Source: an uncultured virus (IMG/VR IMGVR_UViG_3300006217_003352) (taxonomy: Duplodnaviria; Heunggongvirae; Uroviricota; Caudoviricetes). Taken from it: a DNA stretch of 20,000 nt. The notes under the pieces are model-generated. The model worked only from the letters and a program-made list of their open reading frames with translations. It was not told the origin of the DNA and made no database searches. The position numbers and the translations under genes are program-made. The DNA lies in the IMG/VR virus record IMGVR_UViG_3300006217_003352; one strand, given 5' to 3'. This document shows, in pieces, positions 4,135-20,000 of the stretch; the first letter of the stretch is position 1, and each line of letters begins with the position of its first letter.

Positions 4135-5070
4135 TCAGTTACCTCCTAAATAATCTGCCGCCCAAAGTTCAATGGCTTTCCATTTGCTTTTGGCGTTTAC
4201 ATCGCCGCTTTCAATCATTTTCTTAATTGCCATCGTGATGATTTCCGCCGCTTCTTTGGGGATTGCGCTGCTTCCGAGAACGGACGTGATCTGTACCCAT
4301 TCCTGCTTATCGTCGAATTGCAAATCGTCGAACAGTTGCTCTGTTCCTTTAATCATAGCGTGAATAGCCGCGCCCGTGTTCTTGACGTTTGCGAACTCCT
4401 GATATTTTGCAAGAGCGTCGATAAAAGGCTTATGCTGTTCTATATCGCAAGCGCCGATAAAATCAGGTTGCTGTGAGCGTAATGCTTCGACAAGTTTATC
4501 AAGGTCTTTGACTTGATGCGGCAGGAACGTAAATACAATATTCTTCCAATCGTACTCGACTGTCGGGGACAGAAGTTTTTCGAGTTCTGCAAGGGGTTCG
4601 CCCAAGATGTCCTTTCCGATGTAACTTTCCAGCATATCGTCAACGTCGTCTATCAGTTTAACGATTTCTTTCAGCGTGGACTGGTCGTCGAAGCCGCTAA
4701 TGGCGTTATGCGCAAGTTGCTTTGCCGCAATCTGTGAGCGTGTCAACCCCGTAACATCGAGTATCACGTAGATTTCGTTTATAACGCCCGAATCCTTTGC
4801 GGACCGGATTCTGTGATGTCCCGATATGATTTCGATTTTGCCGTCAACGAGAGCGCAGAAAGGCAGGCTTTCAAGTTGCCCGCGTTTGCGGATGTTGTCT
4901 GTAAGCTGCTTCTGCATCTCGTTCTTCATTATTCGAGCATTGATGTCCTGCTCGCGCAGCGAAGTAAGCGGAACTTTGGCTATAATCAAGCCGTGTCCGA
5001 GTTCAAGCATCTGTTCATAGGAAACAGTCTTTACTTCTGCGCTTTGGTTTTCTGTCGTTCCGTTTGCCAT
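4135..5070 (-). CDS. ParB/sulfiredoxin-like N-terminal domain protein
   Basis: ParB-N motifs NARIM...IISGHHRIRSA...AHNAISGFDD; ATG at 5070 has an AGGAGGAG RBS (the track's 5091 start is less likely). Confidence 0.8.
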   Translation of the reverse strand: MANGTTENQSAEVKTVSYEQMLELGHGLIIAKVPLTSLREQDINARIMKNEMQKQLTDNIRKRGQLESLPFCALVDGKIEIISGHHRIRSAKDSGVINEIYVILDVTGLTRSQIAAKQLAHNAISGFDDQSTLKEIVKLIDDVDDMLESYIGKDILGEPLAELEKLLSPTVEYDWKNIVFTFLPHQVKDLDKLVEALRSQQPDFIGACDIEQHKPFIDALAKYQEFANVKNTGAAIHAMIKGTEQLFDDLQFDDKQEWVQITSVLGSSAIPKEAAEIITMAIKKMIESGDVNAKSKWKAIELWAADYLGGN

Positions 5071-6464: not shown

Positions 6465-6483
6465 CTATAAGCCCTCCTGTAAC

Positions 6484-6512
6484 TTGTTAGTTTCGCCTGT
6501 AATTGATATAAT
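6484..6512 (+). promoter_or_regulatory. Sigma70-type promoter of the nuclease moron
   Basis: TTGTTA (6484-6489), 17-nt spacer, TATAAT (6507-6512) with extended -10 TG; AAGGAG RBS at 6533-6538. Confidence 0.7.
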
Positions 6513-6547
6513 ATTAACTACGATAAATAAATAAGGAGACATCGTTT

Positions 6548-7156
6548 ATGCAAGTTTTAACAGGCAATGAGCATCTGAAATTTGACGGTATGCCTATCAA
6601 TAGGTTACTGTCTGACTTCTGGAAATGGAACTCTTCAGATTTGCTCAATAACACAATGCGCGGCGCATTTGCGGAGTTCATTATCGCAACCGCGCTCGAC
6701 CTTGACTTAACCACCACTCACGTGGACTGGGAGTCGTATGACCTTCTATGGGAAGATAAGAAAATCGAAGTCAAATGCTCCGCCTATCTTCAATCGTGGT
6801 ACCCCAAAAATCAACCCGACAAGTATTCAAAAATCATCTTCTCGATCTCGCCGGCGTATGACTGGATTCCAGACGAAGCGCGGTATGATTACGACAATCA
6901 CAAACGCCATTCAAACGTCTATGTATTCTGCCATTACAAAAGCAAGGAACGCGCCCCAGAAAATCCGCTCAATCTGAATAACTGGGACTTTTACGTTCTT
7001 GCTACCTACAAAATTGATGCCATCTTTGGTATGCAACGCAGTATCTCTCTATCTGGTCTGATAAATCGCGGCAAGCCTACCAAATGCGATTATGCAGGCA
7101 TACGCGACGCTATCGAGAAAGAATATCAAGACTACTTACATCACGAACAACAATAA
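6548..7156 (+). CDS. Putative PD-(D/E)XK restriction-like endonuclease (copy A, catalytic motifs intact)
   Basis: RGAFAEF (motif I Glu), SYDL (motif II Asp), IEVK (motif III); has its own promoter, RBS and terminator; antisense to the surrounding operon. Confidence 0.7.
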   Translation: MQVLTGNEHLKFDGMPINRLLSDFWKWNSSDLLNNTMRGAFAEFIIATALDLDLTTTHVDWESYDLLWEDKKIEVKCSAYLQSWYPKNQPDKYSKIIFSISPAYDWIPDEARYDYDNHKRHSNVYVFCHYKSKERAPENPLNLNNWDFYVLATYKIDAIFGMQRSISLSGLINRGKPTKCDYAGIRDAIEKEYQDYLHHEQQ

Positions 7157-7160
7157 GAAA

Positions 7161-7190
7161 AGAAGCGGCTACTTAATCGTAGTCGCTTCT
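7161..7190. terminator. Probable bidirectional intrinsic terminator
   Basis: AGAAGCGGCTAC-TTAATC-GTAGTCGCTTCT 12-bp stem between the convergent nuclease gene and the tRNA; U-rich tail on the - strand. Confidence 0.7.
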
Positions 7191-7225
7191 ACACTTTATT
7201 GTCGGTCTTACAATGAAGACCTATT

Positions 7226-7301
7226 TGGTCCGCCCAGAGGGACTCGAACACCCCAACCCGCAGATTAAGAGTCTGCTGCTCTACCGTTGAGCTATAGGCG
7301 G
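7226..7301 (-). tRNA. tRNA-Lys (anticodon CUU), CCA encoded, irregular T-stem
   Basis: Reverse complement folds as CCGCCTA/TGGGCGG acceptor, GCTC/GAGC D-stem, GCAGA-CT-CTT-AA-TCTGC anticodon arm, TTCGAGT T-loop, discriminator A and CCA; 76 nt. Confidence 0.92.
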
Positions 7302-7748
7302 CTATAATAAGTCGAACAACGTCATTTGCTTTTGCTGTGCTTCTGGCTTTTTGCCCGACTTACACGTTGAACTGTCTTGCAATTCAGGTATCGCCATTCC
7401 CGTGCGAGCCTGCCACCATTCAGCAAATACCAAGCGATGACACCACTCGTCGGGGATTCTGACATCTTCGTAACAACACAGAACAATGTCTTTGTTAAAT
7501 GACAGATACGGTCGCAGAAGGCTTTTCGCCCGTTCAATGCCCACTCTGTCAAGATGTGCAAAGAACTTTGGAGTGAATACCGCCCTATCGTTCTCACTGA
7601 ACAAATAACCGGGCGGCGCGAACTCTATGATGTTTCCGCTTAACTTGTACTTTAACGGAAATCTGGGCGCGCCCCTTGTTATGCCCACAACCGTGTAATT
7701 GCCCGATTGCAATTCGGGGTTTTGGTAACGACTGGTAAATATCTTCAT
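7302..7748 (-). CDS. DUF488-like protein
   Basis: MKIFTSRY start (ATGA overlap with the upstream ORF); IVLCCYE...WCHR motif characteristic of DUF488-type proteins. Confidence 0.7.
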   Translation of the reverse strand: MKIFTSRYQNPELQSGNYTVVGITRGAPRFPLKYKLSGNIIEFAPPGYLFSENDRAVFTPKFFAHLDRVGIERAKSLLRPYLSFNKDIVLCCYEDVRIPDEWCHRLVFAEWWQARTGMAIPELQDSSTCKSGKKPEAQQKQMTLFDLL

Positions 7749-7981
7749 ACCGCCATCCGTAACACCGCACTCTGCAATACCGCAATACCTTTTTTGATAG
7801 CAGCGTCGGTGTCCTTTCCCAACTGTCTGTAAAATGACCCGTGAACCATACACTCGTATGCCAACTGCATATCGTTTGCTTCTTGACGGGTAATCCCGAT
7901 TTTGAAGTCTTTTGCGATACGCAACGCTGCCTTGTGATTTCCCGATAAAAACATTTGCTTTACGATTTCTGTCTTTGTCAT
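7745..7981 (-). CDS. Hypothetical phage protein (78 aa)
   Basis: Purine-rich RBS-like AAGGGG, promoter just upstream, stop overlapping the DUF488 start. Confidence 0.7.
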   Translation of the reverse strand: MTKTEIVKQMFLSGNHKAALRIAKDFKIGITRQEANDMQLAYECMVHGSFYRQLGKDTDAAIKKGIAVLQSAVLRMAV

Positions 7982-8011
7982 TTTAGGTAGCCCCTTGTTT
8001 TTCTTATCTTC

Positions 8012-8040
8012 ATTCTAACACAGGTACTACCGAATAGCAA
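8012..8040 (-). promoter_or_regulatory. Sigma70-type promoter (proximal)
   Basis: TTGCTA (8040-8035), 17 nt, TAGAAT (8017-8012) with extended -10 TG. Confidence 0.55.
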
Positions 8041-8130
8041 ACGGATTTCGTGTATTTTTGCAAAATATTTTTGCAATAAACGATTTTATTTACCGCCTTT
8101 TTTCGGGGTGACATAACATTCAACGCTATC

Positions 8131-8176
8131 ATCATACAACTTTGCTTTTCTTTTGTCAATGCCCAAAAACTGCCCT
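8131..8176 (-). promoter_or_regulatory. Probable late promoter with upstream GGGCA direct repeats
   Basis: TTGACA (8159-8154), 17 nt, TATGAT (8136-8131); two GGGCA repeats just upstream of the -35, immediately after the late-activator gene. Confidence 0.65.
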
Positions 8177-8182
8177 TGCATT

Positions 8183-8779
8183 TTAGAACAGAATGATGTC
8201 CGAAAGGTCGATACCAAAGAACAGTCCCGAAAGGTCCTGTATGGCTACGTTCAAATCTTTGAACACCGTGCGTGTATTGATATGTTCAATGTCTGCTACG
8301 TCGTCGGGGCTTCCTACGTTGTCCGTAAGGTACATCGCTTCCAATACTCTCCACCTTCTCCTAACCTCTTCCCTCTCCGAGTTAAGGCACTTGTTCTTGT
8401 AGAGTTCAAGCATTGTGTCAATGTGTCCCAGTACCGTTTGCGTGAACACCATTCTGTCTTTGATGCTTTCCACCTTACGGCTTTCAAGGTTATCCATTCC
8501 CATACTCTCAAGGAATATCAACTCCTCTTCCGAAAGCAACTGCGTCAATTCGCTGACCGCGTTCCCGGCATAACTTTTCAACCACCTGTACTTTTTCACA
8601 AGTAGCCGCGTATTTTTCATACGGAAATCTTTTGCTTTTGCTCTCTGCTCTTCCATCTGGCGGTTGAACATTTCGATTGCTTTCTCCGTCGCATACTTCG
8701 AGATGAGATTAAGTACATTCTTCGGGATTGCCGAAAAATCATCCTGCGGCTTTTCTGTTGTTTTCGTTTCTTTGCTCAT
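8183..8779 (-). CDS. ArpU/RinA-like late transcriptional activator
   Basis: C-terminal sigma region 4-like HTH (RWRVLEAMYL...DDVADIEHINTRTVFKDLNVAIQDLS); canonical position at the end of the early operon; AGGAG RBS. Confidence 0.7.
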   Translation of the reverse strand: MSKETKTTEKPQDDFSAIPKNVLNLISKYATEKAIEMFNRQMEEQRAKAKDFRMKNTRLLVKKYRWLKSYAGNAVSELTQLLSEEELIFLESMGMDNLESRKVESIKDRMVFTQTVLGHIDTMLELYKNKCLNSEREEVRRRWRVLEAMYLTDNVGSPDDVADIEHINTRTVFKDLNVAIQDLSGLFFGIDLSDIILF

Positions 8780-8828
8780 AAGGCTTCTCCTTTCTGTGGC
8801 TGTATTCTTTACCTACCGGAGCAGGGAC

Positions 8829-9617
8829 TTAAAACAGTCCCCACTCCGCAAACTTCTCAAACCCACCCTTCTTCATAATGAAGTCTCTTGCCACTTCTAC
8901 AATTTCCGAATAGGGCTTGCCGTCGATTGTGTCGTCGCCTATGGCGCAGCACAATTCTACTGTCTTTCCTGTTTCCTGCGCTTTTAAGAACGCATAGATG
9001 TTTACCGATACGTCTGCTTTCGACAAATCCTTGCCGTGAAGCCCGCCGCCCGTTACTCCGTCCGCCATATCTGAACCGAGTTTCCTGTTCGTCGCGCCCG
9101 TGTCTACATTCGTTCCCCCTTCCCAATCCCCAAGCGGATTGACGATGGCTTTCGGGTAGACCTTCCTGATGTAATCGCTTTCGCAGTTGCTCTGACAGAT
9201 TATCATTCTGTCGCCGTCGAGAATGTACTTTCCGTCGTAAGGCACCATTTCGTAAATGCCGTGCGCCATATTCGATAATGCTCTTTGCTCTACCGTAAGC
9301 GGTACGCCCTTGAAAATGCCGTTGTCGCCGCACCTGATCTTGCCGCTTTGATTTTCTGCGAGATGAACATCTTGCTTTGCCTGTGCAATATCTACATTCA
9401 ATTCCGCGTCGCCTGTAATTCTTGTAACGGCCGCATAAATCTTTTCAGGGTCAATTACTACGGAACTTTCCGTGATAATATGACACGCGCCGTGTCCGAT
9501 AAGAACTTCAACTGCAACCTTCGGGTTTTTTTCTTGCGCATAAGCAAGGTCTACAATAGCACCTGCAATTCTGTCTGCCACCTTATCGGGATGGCTGGGG
9601 TTTACTTTTTCAATCAT
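8829..9617 (-). CDS. metK: Compact phage S-adenosylmethionine synthetase (MetK-like)
   Basis: EKVNPSHPDKVADRI (cf. ESVxxGHPDKxxDQI), CGDNG (cf. GAGDQG), YDGK, DTGATNRK (cf. DxGLTGRK), GGGLHGKDLSKAD (cf. GGGAFSGKDPxKVD). Confidence 0.85.
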   Translation of the reverse strand: MIEKVNPSHPDKVADRIAGAIVDLAYAQEKNPKVAVEVLIGHGACHIITESSVVIDPEKIYAAVTRITGDAELNVDIAQAKQDVHLAENQSGKIRCGDNGIFKGVPLTVEQRALSNMAHGIYEMVPYDGKYILDGDRMIICQSNCESDYIRKVYPKAIVNPLGDWEGGTNVDTGATNRKLGSDMADGVTGGGLHGKDLSKADVSVNIYAFLKAQETGKTVELCCAIGDDTIDGKPYSEIVEVARDFIMKKGGFEKFAEWGLF

Positions 9618-9943
9618 TGTTTGTCTCCTTTATTTTGATTTTTTTGTTCTTCGAGTTTTCTGTAAGCGCCCGCCGCCGTGAACATTACCTGCATAAGTTC
9701 GTCAAGCCTAACTGCAAGCATAATCTTCTCTTCCGGCACCGAGATAGATACTGTACCCAATTCGTAACTCGCTTTAATGTTTCCTTCGAGTACCTTGTGC
9801 TTAAACGTCTTTCCGTCGTCGTTGAAAACGAATCTTGCCACGTTTACCTTTGCACTTGCACCATCAAGCGGTCCTTCCTTCGGGTCGGTGTTTACCACCA
9901 CTTCGCACTCTTTACGTGCTTCCTGCTTTTCCTGCTGTTCCAT
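9614..9943 (-). CDS. Hypothetical phage protein
   Basis: ATG at 9943 with AGGAG RBS; ATGA overlap with the metK-like gene. Confidence 0.7.
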   Translation of the reverse strand: MEQQEKQEARKECEVVVNTDPKEGPLDGASAKVNVARFVFNDDGKTFKHKVLEGNIKASYELGTVSISVPEEKIMLAVRLDELMQVMFTAAGAYRKLEEQKNQNKGDKQ

Positions 9944-9957
9944 AGTCAAATCTCCTA

Positions 9958-10239
9958 TTATATTTTTTCGCCCAGAGAGCAAAATTGACTTTCTTCAAAT
10001 GTTCTTGCCGCGCCGCCTTCAAAATGACTGTTTTTGTCACACCACTTTTCTTCGACGTGGTAGAACTTGCAGTCCTTGCATCGGACTATTGTTCTCTTGT
10101 TCCAATATTCTACCGCTTCCGATCTGAAACTAAATGTCGGACTTGATGCACCGCAGTCCCTGCAGACCGCTTTCATCTTTTTCCTTCCTATAATTTCTGC
10201 AACTCCGCCGCAAAACGGACATTTGTTCAATCCTTCCAT
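9958..10239 (-). CDS. Lar-family restriction alleviation / zinc-ribbon protein
   Basis: LNKCPFCGG...CRDCGAS...EAVEYWNKR Lar signature plus a second CKDC..WC..FCS Cys cluster; AGGAGG RBS. Confidence 0.75.
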   Translation of the reverse strand: MEGLNKCPFCGGVAEIIGRKKMKAVCRDCGASSPTFSFRSEAVEYWNKRTIVRCKDCKFYHVEEKWCDKNSHFEGGAARTFEESQFCSLGEKI

Positions 10240-10248
10240 TACTACCTC

Positions 10249-10650
10249 CTAAAACGGTAAATCGTCATTATCGTCATAAGCGTTTTGGGCAGGTCTCTCA
10301 TCAGGTATATCGTCAGGGTAGTAATCATTGTCAGTCTTCGGAGTAAGGAAGTCCACATCCTGAACGATAATATCAACCGTATTATGCTTCACTCCCTTAT
10401 TGTCTTCATACGTTCTCGTTTCGATATTGCCCGTAATTCCGACCTTATGTCCTTTCTTGCAATACTTCCCTATCGTTTCCCCTAAACCTCGCCACACTAC
10501 GCAGTTGAAGAAATCCGTCTTGCGTTCCCCATCGGAGCCGTAGTAGTTGCGTTTAACCGCTATAGAGAACCTGCACACAGATACCCCACTTGCCGTTTCG
10601 GTTAATTCAGGGTCTCGCGTGAGATTTCCGATAAGTTCTACCTTATTCAC
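10249..10650 (-). CDS. ssb: Single-stranded DNA-binding protein
   Basis: NKVELIGNLTRDPEL OB-fold start, acidic tail ending DDLPF; GTG at 10650 with AGGAG RBS. Confidence 0.95.
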   Translation of the reverse strand: MNKVELIGNLTRDPELTETASGVSVCRFSIAVKRNYYGSDGERKTDFFNCVVWRGLGETIGKYCKKGHKVGITGNIETRTYEDNKGVKHNTVDIIVQDVDFLTPKTDNDYYPDDIPDERPAQNAYDDNDDLPF

Positions 10651-11072
10651 TCTGCTTTCTCCTTTGCCTGTCTGAAATAATTCTTCCAATCTTCCGAACA
10701 GTCAATCTCGTTCTGCTCGAACAGGTCTTCGATTTCTTCAATGAGCCGATTGACTTTTGCTCTACCGTCGTTATCCAAATAAGAATTACACGTTTCGTAA
10801 CAATACTTGGGCGGATCTACCCTTACCCCGTCAATCACTTCAAAGAACAGGAAACCGTCGAACAGTCCGCTGCATTGAAGATATTGCGGAAAAAGAGCCT
10901 GCGCCAGTGTCCTGATCTCCGTCGTCGAAACTTCCTTGACGTTCTTTTTAGCAATCCTTTCTACTTCTTCCCTGCTGAAATCGTAGTAGGAATAGCCCTT
11001 GCTTGTGATATTCTTCTTTCACTCCGTATAATCTACGGACAGGTCTTTGTTTAGTTCTATTCTTGTCGTCAT
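10647..11072 (-). pseudogene. Hypothetical gene (142 codons) interrupted by one in-frame TGA at codon 18
   Basis: AAGGAG RBS and ATG at 11072 give MTTRIELNKDLSVDYTE*KKNITSKG..., which continues in frame into the 10647..10838 ORF; TGA at 11021-11019. Confidence 0.75.
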
Positions 11073-11082
11073 AGCCTTCTCC

Positions 11083-11373
11083 TTAATCCAAATAATTCTT
11101 TCCGATGATTTTCATAAACTCTTCTCGGCTGTGAGTTTCCTCGAACTTTGCCTGACATTCTCGCTTTAACTTCAAATCAACTTCTCGGTTGAAATGCACT
11201 CCTTCGTTCGACATATTGTGGTGGAATCCGCACAGGAATACTTTGAACCCGTGCTTCTCGCTTTGCTTCCTGTTTGCCGTCCCGCCGAAAATATGATGCA
11301 AATGCAAATTATAGGTGGACCGGCAGAAATAACAGCATCTGGGCGCGTCGCTATTCTGCAAAATACTTTTCAC
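11083..11373 (-). CDS. HNH-like/zinc-binding phage nuclease (Ref-like)
   Basis: CYFC...HLHHIFGG...LCGFHH...GVH pattern; GTG at 11373 overlapping the upstream stop (GTGA). Confidence 0.65.
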   Translation of the reverse strand: MKSILQNSDAPRCCYFCRSTYNLHLHHIFGGTANRKQSEKHGFKVFLCGFHHNMSNEGVHFNREVDLKLKRECQAKFEETHSREEFMKIIGKNYLD

Positions 11374-11654
11374 TGATCCACACGCTCCCACAACGCTATC
11401 ATCTTGCCCGACATAATGCACTTTCTCTTTCCTACCACTTTTACCTTCCCTTCGTCCTTTAACTCTGTCAGGCGCGGCGCAACGAAATTTCTGTCGTAAT
11501 ATTTGATAATTCCTTCGTCAAGCAAAGCCTTTACGATTTCGCTTACCGTCATCTGCTTGTCTCCAAGAACAGCGAGAATAACATCGCTTCTATCTGCCCG
11601 CTTGCTTGTCACTGAATCATATCCGGCTCGTCGTGTTTCTTCTACGATACCCAT
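11370..11654 (-). CDS. Winged-helix DNA-binding protein
   Basis: MTVSEIVKAL...VAPRLTELKDEGKVKVVGKR wHTH pattern; AGGAGG RBS. Confidence 0.7.
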   Translation of the reverse strand: MGIVEETRRAGYDSVTSKRADRSDVILAVLGDKQMTVSEIVKALLDEGIIKYYDRNFVAPRLTELKDEGKVKVVGKRKCIMSGKMIALWERVDQ

Positions 11655-11789
11655 ACTTCAACCTCCTGTTTTAATTGATATTTTGATTGCTTTATTACTT
11701 ACTGATTGCCACTGGTTGCCTTTTGGTAACGCCCAGCGGATAAAGTGTTTATCTACCAAGAAATGCCCAAATAGCCGCTTTACAGCCGT

Positions 11790-12212
11790 CTAACCGTTAA
11801 CTTCCGTTAGCGTAACAACGACCTTCGGTTCATCTGCGTACAGTTTCTTAACCGACAGTTCATAGATTTGAGCATCATCCTTGTATGCAATGCCATTCAG
11901 CGAGTCCAACACTATCTTTGCGAGATTGTCGCAATCGACTTTCTTTGTGTACTTGATCTCGCCGGCAAGCATTAACGCTCTGTTCTTTTTACTCGTCGAT
12001 TTCGGAATAGGAAAGAAAGCAACGATTTCTGCCTGAATTGCGCCTTCGAGAAAGGTCTTGTCTTTGCATATCTGATACATCACTCTGACGTAATTCTCAT
12101 AGGTTGCCGTTTCTTTGGGAGTATAAGCGTGAGCGAATCCGCCCTGCATTGTTACTTTCGGGCGCATCTTACCTTTCGGCTGTCCGGGAATGGTAAACGT
12201 AACACTTTTCAT
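11790..12212 (-). CDS. rusA: RusA-family Holliday junction resolvase
   Basis: IPGQPKGKMRP, KVDCDNLAKIVLDSLNGIAYKDDAQI catalytic Asp pattern. Confidence 0.92.
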   Translation of the reverse strand: MKSVTFTIPGQPKGKMRPKVTMQGGFAHAYTPKETATYENYVRVMYQICKDKTFLEGAIQAEIVAFFPIPKSTSKKNRALMLAGEIKYTKKVDCDNLAKIVLDSLNGIAYKDDAQIYELSVKKLYADEPKVVVTLTEVNG

Positions 12213-12397
12213 CTGTCTGCCGTCTCCCCGTTTCTGTCTGTTACAATTACCGTGTAATCTACCGACTTCCCTGTTTCGGTGCGCTTCTTTTTGCCCTGTC
12301 TGACCGTATAACCGTTTTCAAACAGAATTGCCGCAACGGTTTTTCTGTCGTCTTTGCTGAATATTTTCAACTCTGCGATGAACTCTTCGTTTTTCAT
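12209..12397 (-). CDS. Hypothetical phage protein (62 aa)
   Basis: Start and stop overlap both neighbours; AGGAG RBS. Confidence 0.7.
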   Translation of the reverse strand: MKNEEFIAELKIFSKDDRKTVAAILFENGYTVRQGKKKRTETGKSVDYTVIVTDRNGETADR

Positions 12398-13281
12398 CAG
12401 TCATCTCCTTCTAAAAATGATTTCATTTTGTCGAATCTCTCTTTGGCTTCAATTCGTCTTCTCGATGAACCTTCAAATTTAATCGGATAGCACATTTCAA
12501 ATACCCTGTCATAGATTCGAGCATACCGAATGTCCGTGTTCTCCTTCATTTCTTTTAACGTCAAGTTTGTCGTGAGTATGATAGGTTTCTGCGAACGGTA
12601 TCTGCTGTCAATCACGTTGTAGACTTTTTCCAATGCAAAGTCCGTATTTCGCTCGGCGCCCAGATCGTCTAATATGAGTAAATCAGGCTCCGTCAGTCTG
12701 TCAATCAGTTCTTCTTCGTCTCCATTCTTGAAAGACGAAAACTGCTGCAGTATTTTAACGAACGATGTCATTACCACTGGACGAAGGCAACTCATAACGT
12801 GATTTCCAATGCAAGCAGCCGCAAACGATTTTCCCGTGCCTACGTTCCCGTAAAATAATAGTCCTTGATTATCTTCAAGCATCTGTTGGAACGCTCTGCA
12901 ATATTTAGCACACGCATTGTAGATTTTTCTGTTATCGTCCGTGATGTCGAAGTTCTTGAACGTCGCCTTATAAAAAACTTCGTCCATAAGCGATACACTG
13001 CGCAGTCTTGCAATTCTCGCCATTTTTTCTTCATACCGTTTCTGCTTTTCTATTCGCTCTTTCTCATCACGAATGCACTTGCAATCACGTGAAGTTAAAA
13101 TCTGATGTCCGTGCCATTCAAAGTATTCTCGCTTCGGCTCTTTACACTTGCCGCAATGTAGGAACCCGTCTTTCATAAAGTCGCCTTCCTTTTCAGGGTT
13201 AGCATCTATTGACCGTTTGCAGGCGAGTTCCATCGTTTCAAGCCAGTTTTGCTCGTCAAGTATCGAACCTATCTGTTTCAT
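12397..13281 (-). CDS. DnaC/IstB-like AAA+ helicase loader
   Basis: N-terminal Zn motif (CGKC...CKC), Walker A GNVGTGKS, Walker B LLILDDLG, TTNL, RIYDRV. Confidence 0.92.
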   Translation of the reverse strand: MKQIGSILDEQNWLETMELACKRSIDANPEKEGDFMKDGFLHCGKCKEPKREYFEWHGHQILTSRDCKCIRDEKERIEKQKRYEEKMARIARLRSVSLMDEVFYKATFKNFDITDDNRKIYNACAKYCRAFQQMLEDNQGLLFYGNVGTGKSFAAACIGNHVMSCLRPVVMTSFVKILQQFSSFKNGDEEELIDRLTEPDLLILDDLGAERNTDFALEKVYNVIDSRYRSQKPIILTTNLTLKEMKENTDIRYARIYDRVFEMCYPIKFEGSSRRRIEAKERFDKMKSFLEGDD

Positions 13282-13289
13282 ACCTCCTC

Positions 13290-14000
13290 CTATTCGTCAA
13301 ACGGATTTCTTCCGTCATCCGGCGTGTCGTTCTGCGCCGTAAACAGTTTCGGGTATTCCTTTTGCGCTTTATCTACCACCCAGTTGAGAATGGCGCGGTA
13401 GTCGCTTTTATAGGTCTTTCCGCTACTCCCTTTGTAGTTATCAAGCAACTCGATGAGCTTCTCCGTCGCTTTCTCTCCGTACTTATCAACAAGACTTTGA
13501 TACTCGCGCTCCTCCATACTGACAAACTCTGCATATTTCTTTTTGCTGGGGTCGTCGTCAGTTTTCTTTTTACGTTTCGGCGCAGGATTTCCCTGTTCTT
13601 CCGTCTGCGGTACGTTTTCCTCTATGTCCGGCTTATCAGGTGTGAGCGTTCCCCGTTTATCGAAAACGGGTTTCGCTCTTCCCGCAAAGTTGTCAGACCA
13701 TACTATCTTTCTCGTAGTCCACAACTCTTTGTCTATCGCGTCGATATTTGCAAGTAGGTCTAAAATTGCTATTGCCTTATCCTTGTCAACTCTCGCAAGC
13801 GATACAAAATACTCCCAATCTTTCAGTACCGAAAAATCTGCATAAAGTTCTTTCTGCGTACCCATAAACTCCAACAGCTTGAACCATAACGCATAACCGT
13901 CATTTCCAAAACTGTTCTGCACCGTAAACAGGGTAGGACCAGTCGCAGCGTGAACGTCGTGCGTAAAATAATCGACCCCTATTTTTGGCAATCTTCCCAT
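13290..14000 (-). CDS. Phage replication initiator (DUF4373/Lin1244-like N-terminus)
   Basis: MGR..KIGVDYFTHD...FGNDGYALWFKLLE N-terminus, YKSDYRAILNW C-terminal domain; upstream of the DnaC-like loader. Confidence 0.78.
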   Translation of the reverse strand: MGRLPKIGVDYFTHDVHAATGPTLFTVQNSFGNDGYALWFKLLEFMGTQKELYADFSVLKDWEYFVSLARVDKDKAIAILDLLANIDAIDKELWTTRKIVWSDNFAGRAKPVFDKRGTLTPDKPDIEENVPQTEEQGNPAPKRKKKTDDDPSKKKYAEFVSMEEREYQSLVDKYGEKATEKLIELLDNYKGSSGKTYKSDYRAILNWVVDKAQKEYPKLFTAQNDTPDDGRNPFDE

Positions 14001-14018
14001 TATGACGCTCCTCGCGGA

Positions 14019-14939
14019 TTATTCTGCGTCGCCGTTGTCGTCGCCTTTGTTGCCGCCGCTTTTATCCTGCTCGATTTGAGCCATAATTCTGTCGTATTGC
14101 GCTTTCTTTAATTCCGTAGTGGATTCTACGTTTTCTGCTTTAAGGAACTCTTTGACTTTGGCATTTCCCGCTTCCTTTCCGCCGTAAACTTCCTGCGCAA
14201 ATGCGAACATTTCTTTTCTTTCGTCCTGCGTAATAACTCTGTTGTCTTCGGGAAGTTCAACGGTTGTCTCCCCTTCCACAACCACGCCGTCTGCGTCGAT
14301 AACCTGAATCTTTCCTTCATCATCTGCGCGAACGAGACCAGACGAAATGAGTTCTTCTTCTGCATACAACCCTTCGTAATCGGAAGGGAACGCATCGCGC
14401 AAACACTGGGCAATGGCAACTTTGTTTATCATCGTCGCCGGCTTACTCTTCCAGTTCGCCATACCCTTGTTGTATTCAGAAAGCGAAACCTCTCTGAACG
14501 CTTCCAACTTGATGTTTTTCTTGATGTAGAAAACGCGGCACCATCCGCCGATAAGTTCTTCCGTAGGATACAGGCAGCATCCTTTCTTCTGAACCACCGT
14601 ATTCCCGCGAACGACAACGATGCCGTCTTCCTTTCCGAGATAATTCGGGTTCAGGAAAGCCCGCTTATTGTAGGAATCCTTGCCTACAACCATCTGCGCA
14701 GGCTCGTCTTTGCTGTACTTGATGAGATAAACTTCTCCGTTTGCCAGCGGATTGAGTTTCTGCATCTTGCAGGTGTTGATAAACATAACCAACTCTTGAT
14801 CCGTAACCAGTTCGGAACGTCCTCTGACAAGATACTTCTTTACGAAGTCTATATCGAGTTGTACGCTCGTGCCGCAGATTTCGTAACTTACCTGCAAAGC
14901 GTTCTGCTCTACCGTACTTAAAGCCTTATTCTGTTCCAT
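14019..14939 (-). CDS. bet: RecT/Bet-family single-strand annealing recombinase
   Basis: CKMQKLNPLANGEVYLIKY, GGWCRV, WKSKPATMINKVAIAQCLRDAFP motifs. Confidence 0.9.
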   Translation of the reverse strand: MEQNKALSTVEQNALQVSYEICGTSVQLDIDFVKKYLVRGRSELVTDQELVMFINTCKMQKLNPLANGEVYLIKYSKDEPAQMVVGKDSYNKRAFLNPNYLGKEDGIVVVRGNTVVQKKGCCLYPTEELIGGWCRVFYIKKNIKLEAFREVSLSEYNKGMANWKSKPATMINKVAIAQCLRDAFPSDYEGLYAEEELISSGLVRADDEGKIQVIDADGVVVEGETTVELPEDNRVITQDERKEMFAFAQEVYGGKEAGNAKVKEFLKAENVESTTELKKAQYDRIMAQIEQDKSGGNKGDDNGDAE

Positions 14940-14954
14940 TTTGAAAACCTCAGA

Positions 14955-15674
14955 TTATTTCCTGAAAGATAATTTTGCGACAGATTTGTACTGGATGCCG
15001 GGTATCTTAATCTGCCCTTTCGATGCCCGAATGAGTTTGAGAATTGCTTTCGTATCTACGGGTCTGATGCACATACCCGCAAAATCGACGGGAACTTTGC
15101 CGTCGTCTACCGCCGTGATTTCCCAATCGATACTGGACGACGTGCCGTCCGCCTTAATCTTCGGCGCTTCCACGATTACGTTCCTGCTCGCGCTGTCTAC
15201 GATGTCCGCTTCCATAAGCGCCGCTTCCGCTTCATCCTGCTTGCCGCTCGCTTCGAGAGCCATTGCTTCCTGCAACTTCTTTTCAGCTTCCGCTTCGGCA
15301 AGACGTTTTACGCGCTCTTCCTCTTCGCGTCTTTTGCGTTCCTGCTCCATTACGTAGTCGCCCATAACCTGCTTGACCGTTTTCTCTGCTGCAATGAGCG
15401 GCGCGAGCATTTCTTTTTCACGGGTGCAGATGTTCTGGTGCGCTTCGTGAGCCGCCTTCTTCATCGGTGCAAAAAATTCGATAATCTGCGCCGATTTCTG
15501 TTTGATGAGCCTTCCGAACGCCGCAGCGTCTTCGTAGTCGCCTTGCGTTGCAATCGTAATCTGCCCCGCTCTCTCTTCGACTGCGGTGACTTCTCTGCTC
15601 ATCTCCGCTTCCGCAACCGTTTTACCTTCAACAACTTCGGGCAATACGGCCACAACCTGTTCTTCCTGTTCCAT
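14955..15674 (-). CDS. Coiled-coil phage protein of the recombination module
   Basis: ATG at 15674 with AGGAGG RBS; long helical E/K/A-rich region and IPGIQY C-terminus; lies between the exonuclease and recombinase genes. Confidence 0.7.
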   Translation of the reverse strand: MEQEEQVVAVLPEVVEGKTVAEAEMSREVTAVEERAGQITIATQGDYEDAAAFGRLIKQKSAQIIEFFAPMKKAAHEAHQNICTREKEMLAPLIAAEKTVKQVMGDYVMEQERKRREEEERVKRLAEAEAEKKLQEAMALEASGKQDEAEAALMEADIVDSASRNVIVEAPKIKADGTSSSIDWEITAVDDGKVPVDFAGMCIRPVDTKAILKLIRASKGQIKIPGIQYKSVAKLSFRK

Positions 15675-15684
15675 TTGAAACCTC

Positions 15685-16293
15685 CTACTGATTTTTTTTG
15701 ATAAAGCGGTACACATCAAGTAACTCGGTAAATACCTTCCAACTTTCTGCATCTGTTATCGGGTGCTGTTCCGCGTGATACGTCCCGTCTTTTCTGGATT
15801 GAATGATGAGTTTGCGCTCAAACTTTACATCGTGGCTTTCAAACGCCTTTTTGTACGCTTCGAGCTGAACTCTTGTGAGTACCTTCGCAACCGTCGCGGT
15901 AGTCTTGAAATCGACCAGCGTCGGCACGTCGTCTATATAGCACGGCAAATCTGCCGTTCCTGCATAGTTAAGCGTTTTGTGATATATTCTGCACTCCGTC
16001 TTAATGGGTACAGGCTTAACTTCGTCTATCCACTTTTTGAACCCGTCGAAGTAGCCACGCAACTCCTTACTGATGTCTTCAATTCCAAACAACAGGTAGT
16101 TTTCTACCGCTGCGTGGACTATCGTTCCTCTGTTTGCGGCTTTGTTCAACGTATCTGTGTCTATTCCGCCGTAATGCGCTGCCGACAACGGTTTCATTAT
16201 TTCTGACACGCTTGGTACAACAAATCCGTTTACCGTGTACGTGTGTGTTTTCTCGCAAAACTGCAATTCTTTAAGTTCGGGTAGATTTATCAT
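15685..16293 (-). CDS. PD-(D/E)XK (Cas4/YqaJ-like) exonuclease
   Basis: PSVSEI, RGTIVH, YAGTAD, VDFKT, QLEAY motifs; partner of the RecT/Bet recombinase. Confidence 0.85.
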   Translation of the reverse strand: MINLPELKELQFCEKTHTYTVNGFVVPSVSEIMKPLSAAHYGGIDTDTLNKAANRGTIVHAAVENYLLFGIEDISKELRGYFDGFKKWIDEVKPVPIKTECRIYHKTLNYAGTADLPCYIDDVPTLVDFKTTATVAKVLTRVQLEAYKKAFESHDVKFERKLIIQSRKDGTYHAEQHPITDAESWKVFTELLDVYRFIKKNQ

Positions 16294-16420
16294 TCTTTGC
16301 TCCTTTTGTCATTATTCCGACGTTCAACTTTTCCGCTGATGCCATAGCCGCATTGAGTTCGCTTTCAGACTTGATCCCGAAAACTTCTTCGAGATATTTC
16401 AAAATGCTTTCCTTCGTCAT
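16271..16420 (-). CDS. Small hypothetical protein (49 aa)
   Basis: ATGA overlap with the upstream gene at 16417-16420; fills the operon gap. Confidence 0.55.
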   Translation of the reverse strand: MTKESILKYLEEVFGIKSESELNAAMASAEKLNVGIMTKGAKNDKSTRT

Positions 16421-16920
16421 AAGCCTTCTATCGCCGCCTTCGTTTTCGTACACAGCAATTTCAGCCCGCTTACCGACTCGACAAGCCTATCGAGATATTT
16501 CAGGATTTCGTCAATCGAATGTACATTCTGCGTAGAAATGCCTTCCGTTGCCGCAATGTTTATCAACTGTCTTTTAACTTCCGATAATTTCCCGTCTTCA
16601 AGATTGTTCAGCAATCGCAGAACCACCGTTTCAAGGCTGGGGATTTCAGTCGCAAGCGTCAGGCAATCTCCTATCGGACAATCGTGCTTGCAATACATCG
16701 TTTTTAATTGCGGTGCATTATACAGGTCTGCCATCAAATTGACTTTATCGACGGGGACAACTTTCGTATTTCCTAACTCATAATCCGCAAGCGATGAAGG
16801 ACTTACGCCGAGCAGGTCTGCGGCGCTTTCGCGGCTCCGTAGTCTCTCGTCGTATAAAGCGGCTTCTTTTCTACACTTGAAGTAGATGTTTTCGTTAGGT
16901 TTCGTAGAGTCGTTTCCCAT
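16417..16920 (-). CDS. XRE-family HTH regulator (CII-position)
   Basis: SRESAADLLGVSPSSLADYELG HTH, YCKHDCPIG motif; directly downstream of cro. Confidence 0.8.
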   Translation of the reverse strand: MGNDSTKPNENIYFKCRKEAALYDERLRSRESAADLLGVSPSSLADYELGNTKVVPVDKVNLMADLYNAPQLKTMYCKHDCPIGDCLTLATEIPSLETVVLRLLNNLEDGKLSEVKRQLINIAATEGISTQNVHSIDEILKYLDRLVESVSGLKLLCTKTKAAIEGL

Positions 16921-16948
16921 TGTGAATTTACCCCGTTTGCGATATAAT
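16920..16948 (+). promoter_or_regulatory. Candidate PRE-like promoter, antisense to cro and pointing to cI
   Basis: TTGTGA (16920-16925), 17 nt, TATAAT (16943-16948). Confidence 0.5.
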
Positions 16949-16971
16949 GTAATTGTTAAAAGCGAAGGCAG

Positions 16972-17196
16972 TTAAAAATTACAGAACTGTAATTCAGAGT
17001 TAAAAAAAATATCGTTGAACTCACTAAACGTAAGGTTTAGCGTCCGCGATACTCTAACCATCTCTGCCGGCGTGAAGTAAACTTCGCCCCTTTCTTTCTT
17101 CGCATAGGTGTCAATAGACTTCTCTATCAATGATGCCATATCGGTTTGCGTTTTGCCGTTCTTAACTCTTACCGATTTTAACAAATTCGTATTCAT
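16972..17196 (-). CDS. Cro-like HTH repressor
   Basis: LLKSVRVKNGKTQTDMASLI...YAKKERG XRE HTH; divergent from cI. ATG 17196 (GGAG RBS) is preferred because ATG 17229 abuts the -10 box. Confidence 0.82.
   Translation of the reverse strand: MNTNLLKSVRVKNGKTQTDMASLIEKSIDTYAKKERGEVYFTPAEMVRVSRTLNLTFSEFNDIFFNSELQFCNF
16977..16994. promoter_or_regulatory. Operator palindrome AATTACAG-AA-CTGTAATT
   Basis: Perfect 8-bp inverted repeat with a 2-nt spacer, inside the 3' end of cro; a near-identical copy lies at 17236-17253. Confidence 0.75.
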
Positions 17197-17229
17197 AGCG
17201 TACTCCGATGAATTTTTGTTTGTACTCAT

Positions 17230-17258
17230 ATTCTAACTTACAGAACTGTAATTGTCAA
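17230..17258 (-). promoter_or_regulatory. Early lytic promoter with the operator filling its spacer
   Basis: TTGACA (17258-17253), 17 nt, TAGAAT (17235-17230); operator ACTTACAGAACTGTAATT at 17236-17253. Confidence 0.82.
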
Positions 17259-17369
17259 ACGGATTTACGGTGTAAAATTATAATTTTTAAGAAAAAAATC
17301 AATATGACTGTAATTTGCTATCTTATTCGGTCAAAAAATATTAAAATGGTAATTATGGAGGTCAAAACA

Positions 17370-17726
17370 ATGGATAACTTCTCAAACAGACTTTTGGCAG
17401 CAATCGAATATCGCGGTGTTTCCCAGAAGTGGCTTGCAGACAATGCGAACACTACTGAAGCCACCATATCCCGATATGTTAACAACAAGGCATCCCCTTC
17501 AATATTGATTGTCCTTCGAGACGTTGCATCTGCTCTCAAAGTGTCGTCTGATTACCTTATCGGGTTGACAAACTTACCGCAGAGCAAAGACAATATAAGC
17601 ATCGAAGAAAAAACAATCATAGATGTTTGGAACAGGGTTTCTGCTGATGATAAAAAAGTATTCTTTGCTTTGCTTGACAAGTATCTTACGCAGAAAGAAA
17701 AAGACGCATTGCGCGACGGAGACTAA
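17370..17726 (+). CDS. CI-like XRE repressor
   Basis: FSNRL...SQKWLADNANTTEATISRYVNN...VSSDYLIG; ATG 17370 with GGAGG RBS; divergent from cro. Confidence 0.88.
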   Translation: MDNFSNRLLAAIEYRGVSQKWLADNANTTEATISRYVNNKASPSILIVLRDVASALKVSSDYLIGLTNLPQSKDNISIEEKTIIDVWNRVSADDKKVFFALLDKYLTQKEKDALRDGD

Positions 17727-17728
17727 CT

Positions 17729-18292
17729 ATGAACAGATTATATACGGGCAACGAACATTTTACTTATGACGATATGCCAGTCAACCGTCTTCTTTCCGAT
17801 TTTCTTATGTGGGTATCGTCTGACCTAACGAACAGCGTAACGCGCAGCATACTTGCGGAATATATCGTTTCAAGCGCTCTTGATCTTGACGTAACTTTAC
17901 GCCAGTCGAAAGAACCTTACCGCATACCGTATAATGGCAACGTAGTTGAAGTTAAATCGTCTGCTTACATTCAGTCATTACAAAGCGACATTCTTTCGTC
18001 TCCTGTTTTTGGTATTGCTCCAACCTATGTTTTTGACGATAATGAAATCGTGAAGCGCGAACGCAAATCGAAATTATATGTCTTCTGCCTACTCGATTGT
18101 CTTAACCGCGAAATGATTGATCCATTGCATCTCGAACAGTGGAAATTCTACGTTCTTCCTACTTCTATACTGAACGAACAATGTGGCGAACAGAAAACTC
18201 TGACACTCAATGCCCTGAAAGCACTCAACCCGACAGAAGCAACATACGAAACGCTTAAAAGCGTGATAGACAATTATGCAGAAAGAATCTAA
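17729..18292 (+). CDS. PD-(D/E)XK-like protein (copy B, paralog of 6548..7156, motif II Asp absent)
   Basis: Collinear similarity with copy A along the full length (TGNEH, MPxNRLLSDF, SSDL, ALDLD, EVKxSAYxQS, YVFC, PLxLxxWxFYVL); YRI replaces YDL. Confidence 0.75.
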   Translation: MNRLYTGNEHFTYDDMPVNRLLSDFLMWVSSDLTNSVTRSILAEYIVSSALDLDVTLRQSKEPYRIPYNGNVVEVKSSAYIQSLQSDILSSPVFGIAPTYVFDDNEIVKRERKSKLYVFCLLDCLNREMIDPLHLEQWKFYVLPTSILNEQCGEQKTLTLNALKALNPTEATYETLKSVIDNYAERI

Positions 18293-20000
18293 ACTTAACA
18301 AGAAGGCTGCCCTTTATGTACGCGTATCTACCAATATGCAAATCGACAAGGACAGCCTTCCTTTACAAAAAAACGACCTTGCTAACTATGCAAAGTACGC
18401 TCTTGATATTTCGGAATACGAAATCTTTGAAGACGCAGGCTATTCCGCAAAAAATACTGACAGACCGCGCTATCAACAGATGATGTCACGATTGCGAACT
18501 GGCGAATTTTCTCATCTCATCGTGTGGAAGATTGACCGCATTTCCCGTAACCTGCTTGACTTCGCCGCAATGTATGAAGAACTAAAACGTCTCGGTGTAG
18601 TTTTCGTAAGCAAAAATGAACAGTTCGATACATCAACTGCAATAGGCGAAGCAATGCTGAAAATCATTCTTATATTTGCCGAACTTGAACGTAAGATGAC
18701 ATCGGAGCGAGTTACTGCAGTTATGGTTTCTCGCGCAAATAACGGTCAATGGAACGGCGGACGTGTCCCCTTCGGCTATGCCTATGACAAGGTTACTAAA
18801 ATCTTTTCCGTAAATGAAACGGAAGCCGCGACTGTTCGTGCAATCTATGACAAATACGAAGAAACCCATTCTCTTCTGCAGACGTGCAAGTTTCTGAATG
18901 AAAACGGACTTTCCACACGTAGCGGAATAGCGTGGAATCCAACAACAGCAAGAACTATGCTCTCTAATCCGTTCTATATAGGAAACTATCTCTACAACAA
19001 ACACGATTTGAGCAAAACAAACTATCGCCTGAAAACCAACCGCCGCCCCGAATCGGAGTGGATTCTGGTTGAAGACCACCACGTTCCTATCGTTGACCGC
19101 GAACGCTGGGAGTCCGTAAACGACCAACTAAAAGCAAATCGCCGCAGCAACAAGGACGGCCCGCGTACATACACGAGAGTAAACACTCACATCTTCGCAG
19201 GCATTCTTATCTGCGGTAAATGCGGTTCGCAAATGTGCGCAACTATTGACCGTGAACGCGATGGCGGCTATCGCCCTTCTATTTATCTATGCTCGCGCCA
19301 CCGCCGCTTTAACGATTGCCCTAACAAATACATTTCCGACATCGTGGTAGGACCGTTCATTCTAAACTACGTGGCAAACATCATAAAAGCGCAAAATAAT
19401 TTCGGCGCAACAACAAGCCTTGAAACTTTTGAGAAAAAACTTCTTCGCGGCGATGTGTTCTCTGGCGTGAAAGGCATAGACAAAGCGGGTCTGCAGGAAA
19501 TGTATGATATGCTCCGCGCCGGCAAATTCGGCACAGATATATACGAGCCTAAAAACGTAACTATTGACGACACCGCCATAAATGAGCGCGATCTATTGCT
19601 TACAGAGAAACGAAAAAAAGAACGTGCGCTTGCACGTCTCAAAACTTTGTATCTTTACAGCGAAAGCGATATGCCCGAAACGGAATACTTCATTGAACGC
19701 AAAGCCATTACTGACGAACTCGAACAAATAGACGCTCGGCTTGATGAGATAGAAAAAAACGCTTCCGCTTCATTCTCTATCTCTGACGAGGACTTTATCG
19801 CAAAAGCGTCTTACTTTATAATGAGCCAACAACTACTTACAAAGCGGTATGTGAACTTTGATACTATGATACGGAAAATCGACACGAAAATCATCAAGGA
19901 TTTCGTCAATTCAGTCATTAAAAAAATTGTAATTCTGGATGGCAAAATTCTTTCTATCCGTTTCAAAAACGGCATTGAACACAAATTTCTGTACGAATAA
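18276..20000 (+). CDS. Large serine recombinase (integrase)
   Basis: ALYVRVST catalytic Ser, DAGYSAKNTDRP, KIDRISRN, recombinase domain (PFGY, LSNPFYIG), Zn ribbon CGKCG...YLC...C, coiled coil; complete, with TAA at 19998-20000. Confidence 0.95.
   Translation: MQKESKLNKKAALYVRVSTNMQIDKDSLPLQKNDLANYAKYALDISEYEIFEDAGYSAKNTDRPRYQQMMSRLRTGEFSHLIVWKIDRISRNLLDFAAMYEELKRLGVVFVSKNEQFDTSTAIGEAMLKIILIFAELERKMTSERVTAVMVSRANNGQWNGGRVPFGYAYDKVTKIFSVNETEAATVRAIYDKYEETHSLLQTCKFLNENGLSTRSGIAWNPTTARTMLSNPFYIGNYLYNKHDLSKTNYRLKTNRRPESEWILVEDHHVPIVDRERWESVNDQLKANRRSNKDGPRTYTRVNTHIFAGILICGKCGSQMCATIDRERDGGYRPSIYLCSRHRRFNDCPNKYISDIVVGPFILNYVANIIKAQNNFGATTSLETFEKKLLRGDVFSGVKGIDKAGLQEMYDMLRAGKFGTDIYEPKNVTIDDTAINERDLLLTEKRKKERALARLKTLYLYSESDMPETEYFIERKAITDELEQIDARLDEIEKNASASFSISDEDFIAKASYFIMSQQLLTKRYVNFDTMIRKIDTKIIKDFVNSVIKKIVILDGKILSIRFKNGIEHKFLYE

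What the first reader, a model, noticed from the sequence alone, without database searches (positions are those of the whole stretch)
6548..18292. Two paralogous PD-(D/E)XK proteins 11 kb apart: an intact nuclease and an apparently dead copy wired into the cI-integrase operon
Seen: ORFs 6548..7156 and 17729..18292 align end to end. Copy A keeps E (RGAFAEF), D (SYDL) and EVK. Copy B keeps E and EVK but has Arg where the metal-binding motif II Asp sits (PYRI). Both are on the + (lysogenic) strand. B starts 2 nt after the cI stop and overlaps the integrase start, a slot often taken by ImmA-type proteases or exclusion genes. Established: PD-(D/E)XK catalysis needs the motif II Asp. Inference: A may be a prophage-encoded anti-phage or restriction nuclease and B a pseudo-nuclease regulator, e.g. 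a dominant-negative antidote that heterodimerises with A, or a DNA-binding decoy tied to repressor expression. This would be an enzyme/pseudoenzyme defence or addiction switch, and I do not recognise it as a described system.
Basis: partly seen in the sequence, partly recalled or inferred. Interest (0 to 1): 0.85.

Follow-up and report, generated by a model that had tools for sequence, protein, structure and literature searches.

The report
Prophage nuclease with a dead twin
A dormant virus in a gut bacterium carries both a DNA-cutting enzyme and a disabled but carefully preserved look-alike wired to its repressor gene, a pairing that arose more than once in related viruses and probably lets the disabled copy bind and restrain the working one.

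Summary
Observation confirmed. A (6548-7156) and B (17729-18292) are 39% identical PD-(D/E)XK-fold proteins whose relatives carry Pfam PF26887 (T4 DenB-like; direct likeness to DenB weak), in a Brigitvirus-like prophage. The motif II Asp is kept in 216 of 230 aligned rows; all 14 exceptions are B's clade (Arg/Lys). B has dN/dS 0.07-0.09, like A (0.06): a maintained pseudo-enzyme, not a decaying gene. The cI slot is the family's usual home: 34 related records have an intact copy there, 33 of them alone. A is the later, mobile moron. Dead cI-slot copies arose at least twice, by different substitutions, and all 10 records spanning both slots also hold an intact copy. A natural active+dead fusion exists. 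The A:B model passes (0.70, controls 0.00) but may only echo the family's homodimer. Best reading: B, made with cI, heterodimerises with A and damps it (0.35); rivals are separate jobs without binding (0.28) or a working one-site heterodimer (0.22). Against a strict antidote: intact copies live alone in cI operons, and a 93%-identical A sits in a fragment without B. No activity was tested; no description found in ten literature searches.

The parts
6548..7156 (+). Copy A: intact PD-(D/E)XK nuclease of the PF26887 (DenB-like) group, 202 aa, E43/D65/E74/K76; a stand-alone moron against the lytic direction
   Evidence: DNA identity with a copy in an unrelated phage runs only from the ribosome site to just past the stop
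6484..6512 (+). sigma-70-like promoter candidate for A (TTGTTA-17-TATAAT, TG before -10)
   Evidence: 2 sites found against 1.6 expected in shuffles, so position is suggestive only
7161..7190 (+). 12-pair hairpin right after A's stop, terminator candidate
   Evidence: 5 found against 1.3 expected
17729..18292 (+). Copy B: pseudo-nuclease, 187 aa, Arg65 in place of the motif II Asp; also N35S, G39S, W61K, W84L, W25L (A numbering)
   Evidence: dN/dS 0.07-0.09
17370..17726 (+). cI-like HTH repressor, 2 nt upstream of B
18276..20000 (+). large serine integrase, start overlapped by B
   Evidence: Resolvase, Recombinase, Zn ribbon
16972..17199 (-). Cro-like HTH, divergent from cI
5031..6464 (-). DAM-like-phage1 + GNAT-phage-like protein (putative DNA modification), divergent from A; context, not shown to belong to the pair
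   Evidence: PF22555, PF22559; present also in single-copy phages such as FP_Brigit
7226..7301 (-). tRNA-Lys(CTT) just downstream of A; context

Best explanation
B is a catalytically dead, selectively maintained dimer partner that restrains A. History (inferred from trees and contexts): these prophages normally carry one intact DenB-like PD-(D/E)XK nuclease in the cI operon; some gained a second intact copy as a self-promoted moron among the lytic genes; the cI-slot copy then lost catalysis but kept its fold and N-terminal dimer surface. Working (inferred): B is made together with cI in the lysogen and pairs with A, so most A sits in one-active-site heterodimers that nick or do nothing; when the cI operon is shut off (induction, or takeover by an incoming phage) A dimers form and cut DNA, for host DNA breakdown or abortive defence. 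Shown: fold, lost residues, purifying selection, co-occurrence, repeated origin. Inferred: binding, direction of control, substrate.
For: B dN/dS 0.075 (CI 0.034-0.142), 0.070, 0.091, 0.086 in four pairs, A 0.063. All 14 non-Asp rows of 230 are B's clade, nested among Asp-keeping sisters. All 10 records with a dead cI-slot copy that span both slots hold an intact copy: G000, G014/G497 (probably one genome), G502, G503, G504, the L001/L008 contig, G500, G501, G545, G935; of 34 records with an intact cI-slot copy and at least 15 kb upstream, 1 has a second copy. By 70%-identity clusters 5 of 5 against 1 of 9, Fisher p 0.003; without G545, found through its partner, p 0.007. A second lineage lost catalysis by other routes (E43K, E74Q/D/N/C/Y/T, K76E/R/S/G, D65A/S/G/H) and falls apart from B on the tree. 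A 154-aa B-lineage derivative keeps 18-20 of 40 interface positions but 2 of 19 active-site-face positions, has dN/dS 0.049, and replaces B in a phage whose A is 100% identical: a near interface-only protein. A:B model 0.70, best of 3 controls 0.00 (mark reached by 116 of 157 solved and 2 of 215 mismatched pairs; runs share at least 86% of contacts; partner pLDDT at least 82), two-fold interface through the N-terminal hairpin and helices; the closest solved folds dimerise by an N-terminal helix (PMC11347163). T4 denB is lethal in E. coli (PMC2175332).
Against: 33 of 34 intact cI-slot copies have no dead partner, and FP_Brigit has one intact copy, so family members are tolerated in lysogens without a brake. 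A 93%-identical A lies in G505 (15.7 kb, 29% complete) whose HTH-ImmA region holds no family member. Two-intact pairs exist: G519, and probably P0016/P0133 (same longest-contig length 46,236). With only two independent origins counted the co-occurrence is not significant (p 0.055 at 9 clusters, 0.4 at 4 clusters). B shows no interface-biased conservation (26 of 40 against 82 of 114), the dead half of fusion P0230 shows the reverse (8 of 37), and the other dead copies reach only nominal p 0.03-0.07, two not at all. The complex pass is expected for any cousin of a homodimer (10 of 12 close cousins passed in calibration); A:A and B:B were not run. G064 and G498 have a dead copy and no A found, though their contigs end before A's slot.
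Confidence: 0.35

Rival explanations
1. Division of labour without binding: the ancestral cI-slot protein had a cutting job and a non-cutting job (DNA binding, help for repressor or integrase, decoy for a host nuclease sensor); A took over cutting and B keeps only the other job.
For: Explains co-occurrence, purifying selection and repeated origin equally well; the slot is held by the family across many phages, often fused to an ImmA/IrrE peptidase with HExxH, which points to a regulatory link with cI; B keeps R38, E43, E74, K76, Y80, Q82.
Against: Does not explain why the 154-aa derivative, which lost nearly the whole DNA-facing surface, is still conserved, nor the active+dead fusion P0230.
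Confidence: 0.28
2. A:B is the working enzyme: an asymmetric heterodimer with one active site (nickase or structure-specific nuclease), so B switches A on only while cI is expressed, for example to attack incoming phage DNA but spare the prophage's own lytic DNA.
For: P0230 fuses an intact domain to a dead one in fixed 1:1 ratio; the 154-aa dead gene lies in tandem with a 180-aa Asp-keeping gene under selection (dN/dS 0.038); two-intact pairs look like the intermediate; model passes; inactivating one site of heterodimeric BbvCI gives nickases (PMC6326814, abstract start).
Against: A occurs in a fragment without B; identical A is paired with two very different dead proteins (32% identical to each other); dead copies diverge faster than partners (32-44% against 62-75% identity in the second lineage).
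Confidence: 0.22
3. B is a redundant relic kept in frame only for translational coupling of cI and integrase, on its way to loss.
For: Tight 2-nt gap and 17-nt overlap; faster divergence of dead copies; redundancy predicts loss of catalysis when a second copy arrives; real broken copies exist (G543, G812, G821).
Against: dN/dS 0.07-0.09 over the whole gene, at synonymous distances up to saturation; an open frame alone would not keep amino acids; core residues invariant.
Confidence: 0.08
4. B is still a nuclease, with another acidic residue completing the site.
For: E62 lies three residues before R65 in B, and E44, E74, K76 are kept.
Against: E62 is Ile in two B-clade members and is present in Asp-keeping sisters too, so it is no compensating gain; W61, W84, N35, G39 are lost in step; the PD aspartate binds the metal in the closest solved family and active-site changes abolished activity there (PMC11347163). 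Side-chain geometry of the B model could not be inspected.
Confidence: 0.05

Closest known systems
T4 endonuclease IV (DenB, NP_049887.1; Pfam PF26887 Phage_T4_End_IV)
   Same: PF26887 is precomputed on most relatives, including one 98% identical to A, and on the top Atlas clusters at 46-82% of members; similar size; E, D and EVK motifs in the same order.
   Different: Direct profile match is weak (probability 14.5%, 42 columns); DenB is a single gene of lytic T-even phages that cuts dC-containing ssDNA and spares glucosylated hmC DNA (PMC1635256); no dead partner appeared in the passages read; here the genes are in a temperate phage's immunity operon.
BisI-family modification-dependent endonucleases (NhoI, Eco15I), I-Ssp6803I, PvuII
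   Same: Best structural matches to the A model: I-Ssp6803I Z 9.8 (rmsd 4.7, 131 aligned), NhoI Z 8.7 (7.6, 137), Eco15I Z 7.8 (8.0, 123); small stand-alone dimers joined through an N-terminal helix.
   Different: 11-15% identity; BisI enzymes have QxK, A has EVK; they are homodimers with two live sites; substrate not transferable.
Faecalibacterium phage FP_Brigit gp02 (HOS62_gp02)
   Same: 44% identical to A, same cI-[X]-serine integrase slot as B, same overall gene order.
   Different: Single, Asp-keeping copy annotated as hypothetical; no second copy.
Type IIT heterodimeric restriction enzymes (BbvCI, Bpu10I)
   Same: Two homologous PD-(D/E)XK subunits in one dimer; one dead site gives a nickase (abstract start).
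   Different: Both subunits are naturally active and adjacent; the dead variants are engineered; here one is naturally dead, 11 kb away and under repressor control.
XPF-ERCC1 and MUS81-EME1; RecB/RecC (recalled, no call)
   Same: Active nuclease paired with a dead homologue.
   Different: Cellular repair enzymes with extra domains, obligate complexes; unrelated origin.
ImmA/IrrE anti-repressor peptidases (PF06114)
   Same: Same gene slot; fused N-terminally to intact family members in several related phages.
   Different: B has no peptidase domain or HExxH.

Membership tests
PD-(D/E)XK superfamily (copy A) | restriction-endonuclease core fold | tested here: met
   model pLDDT 79.6; the top 16 VIA rows are nucleases of this fold or look-alikes, best Z 9.8; Foldseek best E 6.8e-3
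PD-(D/E)XK superfamily (copy A) | helix Glu, motif II Asp, (D/E)xK conserved | tested here: met
   E43 228, D65 216, E74 229, K76 229 of 230 rows
PD-(D/E)XK superfamily (copy A) | Mg-dependent DNA cleavage | not testable with these tools
   needs assay
active PD-(D/E)XK nuclease (copy B) | motif II Asp | tested here: not met
   Arg65; clade-wide R/K
PF26887 Phage_T4_End_IV | match to the family model | tested here: inconclusive
   precomputed on P0001 (98% to A) and on B's Asp-keeping sisters, absent on B's dead relatives; the session's Pfam copy gave no hit for A or B
T4 DenB orthologues | sequence homology over the whole length | tested here: inconclusive
   hhalign probability 14.5%, E 0.0019, 42 columns at the motifs only; tblastn of A in the phage collection found no T-even phage (3 records); no PHROG hit
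T4 DenB orthologues | dC-specific ssDNA cleavage | not testable with these tools
   needs assay
BisI family | PD-QxK active site | tested here: not met
   EVK in A and in 229 of 230 rows; QVK/QIK in NhoI/Eco15I
BisI family | cleavage needs modified cytosines | not testable with these tools
   needs assay
Type II toxin-antitoxin module | two adjacent co-transcribed genes | tested here: not met
   11 kb apart in separate units; adjacent only in the 154+180 aa variant
Type II toxin-antitoxin module | toxin neutralised by direct protein binding | tested here: inconclusive
   model passes, 0.70 against 0.00; toxicity untested
Type IIT heterodimeric REase | two catalytic subunits | tested here: not met
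   B lacks the Asp
ImmA/IrrE anti-repressor | Peptidase_M78 domain with HExxH | tested here: not met
   none in B; present in fused relatives
catalogued defence systems (PADLOC 2.0) | match to a system model | tested here: not met
   0 families for A and B at E up to 1; library dates from 2023

The most novel reading that the evidence does not exclude
Temperate phages have repeatedly evolved a split nuclease/pseudo-nuclease switch: a dead homologue co-expressed with the repressor heterodimerises with a free-standing active nuclease elsewhere in the prophage and so ties DNA cutting to the lysis-lysogeny state, a phage counterpart of enzyme/pseudo-enzyme pairs in which the antidote (or activator) is the toxin's own homologue, with every stage visible in nature (one intact, two intact, intact plus dead, interface-only remnant, fused pair).
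Probability: 0.5. Interest if true: 0.85.

Novelty: new variant of a known kind. Interest (0 to 1): 0.72.

Why it matters
It would show a new way for a prophage to carry and gate a DNA-destroying enzyme, with control by a dead homologue under repressor timing instead of by a methylase, an unrelated antitoxin or a sensor domain. It gives a natural series for how pseudo-enzymes arise, caught at least twice in one phage group. It also points to an unstudied, large family (3,828 representatives at E up to 0.001) that routinely fills the cI-integrase slot of gut Clostridia prophages, sometimes fused to ImmA, and is a ready candidate for defence screens.

Tried and rejected
Foldseek against viral models gave no row at E up to 0.001. 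Expression: 4 of the 20 holder runs were laid; three cover all 30 bins evenly, as DNA carry-over would; in X5 one contig bridges 17380-20000 (cI, B, integrase) and 7 of 30 bins are empty, but contigs cannot show transcription or rank genes and the runs were found with that very stretch; nothing is shown for A. Net charge does not separate dead from intact copies, so no support for a DNA-mimic reading. Interface-biased conservation is not significant for B (the 19 'site' positions were my choice). Genome surveys gave few cases: 3 of 117 in the family, 6 of 401 in the order, 7 of 399 in the class (2 genomes not scored). Five short records and three were too short to test co-occurrence; G527 and G532 were dropped from the 36 intact-slot records for having under 15 kb upstream; L012, L013, L014, L023, L024 lie in records not held and L099 was not searched, so their second slot is unknown. 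The Fisher values printed used hand-set cluster numbers and are replaced. A fixed link to the DAM-GNAT gene was rejected: single-copy phages have it too and the second lineage and G505 lack it beside the moron. Literature: searches (0 papers; 0 papers) showed no description of this pair in their listings; subscription journals are not covered and no supplements were read. Earlier scan notes: nothing by sequence or place.
Full report
Observation. Both ORFs are at the stated places on the + strand and align end to end at 39% identity, E 6e-42. A has E43, D65, E74, K76; B has Arg at 65. B begins 2 nt after the cI stop and overlaps the serine integrase start by 17 nt. The window is the early and packaging half of an apparently whole prophage of about 64 kb on contig C2 (extent judged by eye from ORFs), with the gene order of Faecalibacterium phage FP_Brigit; near-identical loci are in genomes labelled Christensenella.

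Family. The session's Pfam, PADLOC and PHROGs copies name neither protein, but most homologues carry the precomputed PF26887, which the Atlas names Phage_T4_End_IV. A direct comparison of a 45-row profile with T4 DenB is weak and limited to the motifs (probability 14.5%, 42 columns), so DenB's dC-ssDNA specificity (PMC1635256, passages) and lethality in E. coli (PMC2175332, passages; PMC12916289, passages) are leads only. The A model (pLDDT 79.6) matches PD-(D/E)XK enzymes: I-Ssp6803I Z 9.8, NhoI 8.7, Eco15I 7.8. The family is large (3,828 representatives).

B is dead, and kept. D65 is D in 216 of 230 rows; the 14 others are B and its close relatives, one clade (12 full-length rows, support 99) nested among four Asp-keeping sisters of 55-68% identity. 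B's clade also changes N35, G39, W61, W84 and W25, which the sisters keep. A nearby Glu is not a compensating gain. dN/dS is 0.075, 0.070, 0.091 and 0.086 (the last at saturated dS) for B pairs, 0.063 for A, 0.018-0.034 for the integrase. B is therefore a maintained pseudo-enzyme.

Which copy is the newcomer. The slot after cI is the family's usual place in this phage group: FP_Brigit and dozens of viral contigs have one intact copy there, some fused to an ImmA/IrrE peptidase with HExxH. A has its own promoter candidate and hairpin and a 93%-identical copy in a phage of another type, with DNA identity confined to the gene. A and B are not sisters. Pairs of two intact copies exist (G519; P0016 with P0133 by equal contig length), and an A-clade and a dead B-clade protein share another contig length (57,119). 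The likely order is one intact, two intact, then loss of catalysis in the cI slot (inference).

Repeated origin. G501, G545 and G935 have dead cI-slot copies that lost the ExK motif, with an intact copy 9-12 kb away on the same strand. They group away from B (two are long branches, so their exact place is unsure), and their relatives show many different inactivating changes. A 154-aa B-lineage derivative without motif II lies in tandem with a 180-aa Asp-keeping gene, both under selection (0.049, 0.038); in G500 this pair replaces B while A is 100% identical. P0230 is a natural fusion of an intact and a dead domain. All 10 records with a dead cI-slot copy that reach both slots have an intact copy; 1 of 34 with an intact cI-slot copy has a second. 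At 70% clusters this is 5 of 5 against 1 of 9 (p 0.003); counted as two origins it is p 0.055, and with 60% clusters p 0.048 to 0.4. Dead-copy records whose contigs stop short (G064, G498, G499, G936, G937) cannot be scored; in G064 and G498 no other copy was found in the assembly.

Binding. The A:B model scores 0.70 against 0.00 for the best of three controls (mark reached by 116 of 157 solved and 2 of 215 mismatched pairs; runs share at least 86% of contacts; partner pLDDT at least 82), with a two-fold interface through the N-terminal hairpin, the first two helices and residues 141-144. BisI-family enzymes dimerise through an N-terminal helix too (PMC11347163, passages). Close cousins of true partners pass this test, so the result shows that B keeps a usable family dimer surface, not that A prefers B. 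Interface-biased conservation is absent in B, nominal in five other dead-copy comparisons (p 0.03-0.07), absent in two, and reversed in P0230.

Mechanism. I rank a brake by heterodimer first (0.35): it fits the interface-only remnant, the swap of dead partners under one A, and cI timing. It is weakened by the many unpartnered intact copies and by A without B in a fragment. Division of labour without binding (0.28) and a working one-site heterodimer (0.22) remain close; a relic (0.08) or a still-active B (0.05) are unlikely. Some role through dimerising with an intact copy thus has about 0.55. Substrate and purpose (defence or lytic DNA breakdown) are not shown; RNA runs did not settle expression.

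Known or new. It works like active/dead nuclease heterodimers (XPF-ERCC1 and RecB/RecC recalled, no call; BbvCI nickases, PMC6326814, abstract start) and like an antitoxin, but fails membership of type II TA modules, type IIT enzymes, BisI and ImmA. Ten searches of the open library listed no account of this pair; the Brigit paper's passages do not mention the gene (PMC5883640); PMC12704722 (passages) added nothing; supplements were not read and could hold annotations.

Noticed in passing
L044:9632-10600, L047, L051, L055, L088; P0038, P0044, P0162: ImmA/IrrE peptidase (HExxH intact) fused in frame to an intact DenB-like nuclease right after cI; the junction looks like a kept ribosome site and start, so both long and short forms may be made.
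   Followed up: partly
P0230 (381 aa): Natural tandem fusion of an intact and a dead domain of the family; no genomic context available.
   Followed up: partly
L023:9544-10552, L105:1856-2864, L161:3766-4774: Tandem 154-aa remnant plus 180-aa Asp-keeping family genes between cI and integrase; with A this gives three copies in G500.
   Followed up: yes
L164:880-1491 (G505): 93%-identical A inserted between a sigma-70 region 4 activator and an HNH gene in an unrelated phage with DNA polymerase A, D5 primase, SNF2, ImmA and UmuCD-like genes.
   Followed up: partly
window 341-2200 (-): Portal-like ORF of 619 aa with a C-terminal extension bearing a Nudix-like motif (seen by eye, motif recalled, not scanned).
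   Followed up: no
window 4135-9617 (-): ParB-like, DAM-like+GNAT, DUF488-like and SAM-synthetase-like genes, a putative DNA-modification cluster around A's insertion; the second lineage has PglD-like acetyltransferase and PIG-L genes beside its moron instead.
   Followed up: partly
window 7226-7301 (-): tRNA-Lys(CTT) gene next to A.
   Followed up: no
G000:C2, about 19-21 kb before window position 1: A 432-aa and a 144-aa ORF that look like a diversity-generating retroelement's reverse transcriptase and accessory protein (by eye; Brigit has a DGR).
   Followed up: no
L090:9974-10558 (G543); G812, G821: Frameshifted or stop-split family copies without a partner: ordinary pseudogenes or assembly errors, distinct from the in-frame dead copies.
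   Followed up: no
L031:759-1331, L033:7524-8096: Distant family members with altered motifs (helix Glu lost, Asp to Glu, AVK) in non-phage-looking contigs; possibly a further dead lineage.
   Followed up: no
window 7671-8058: A short contig of high word depth in RNA run X5 over the 78-aa ORF and DUF488-like start; meaning unknown.
   Followed up: no
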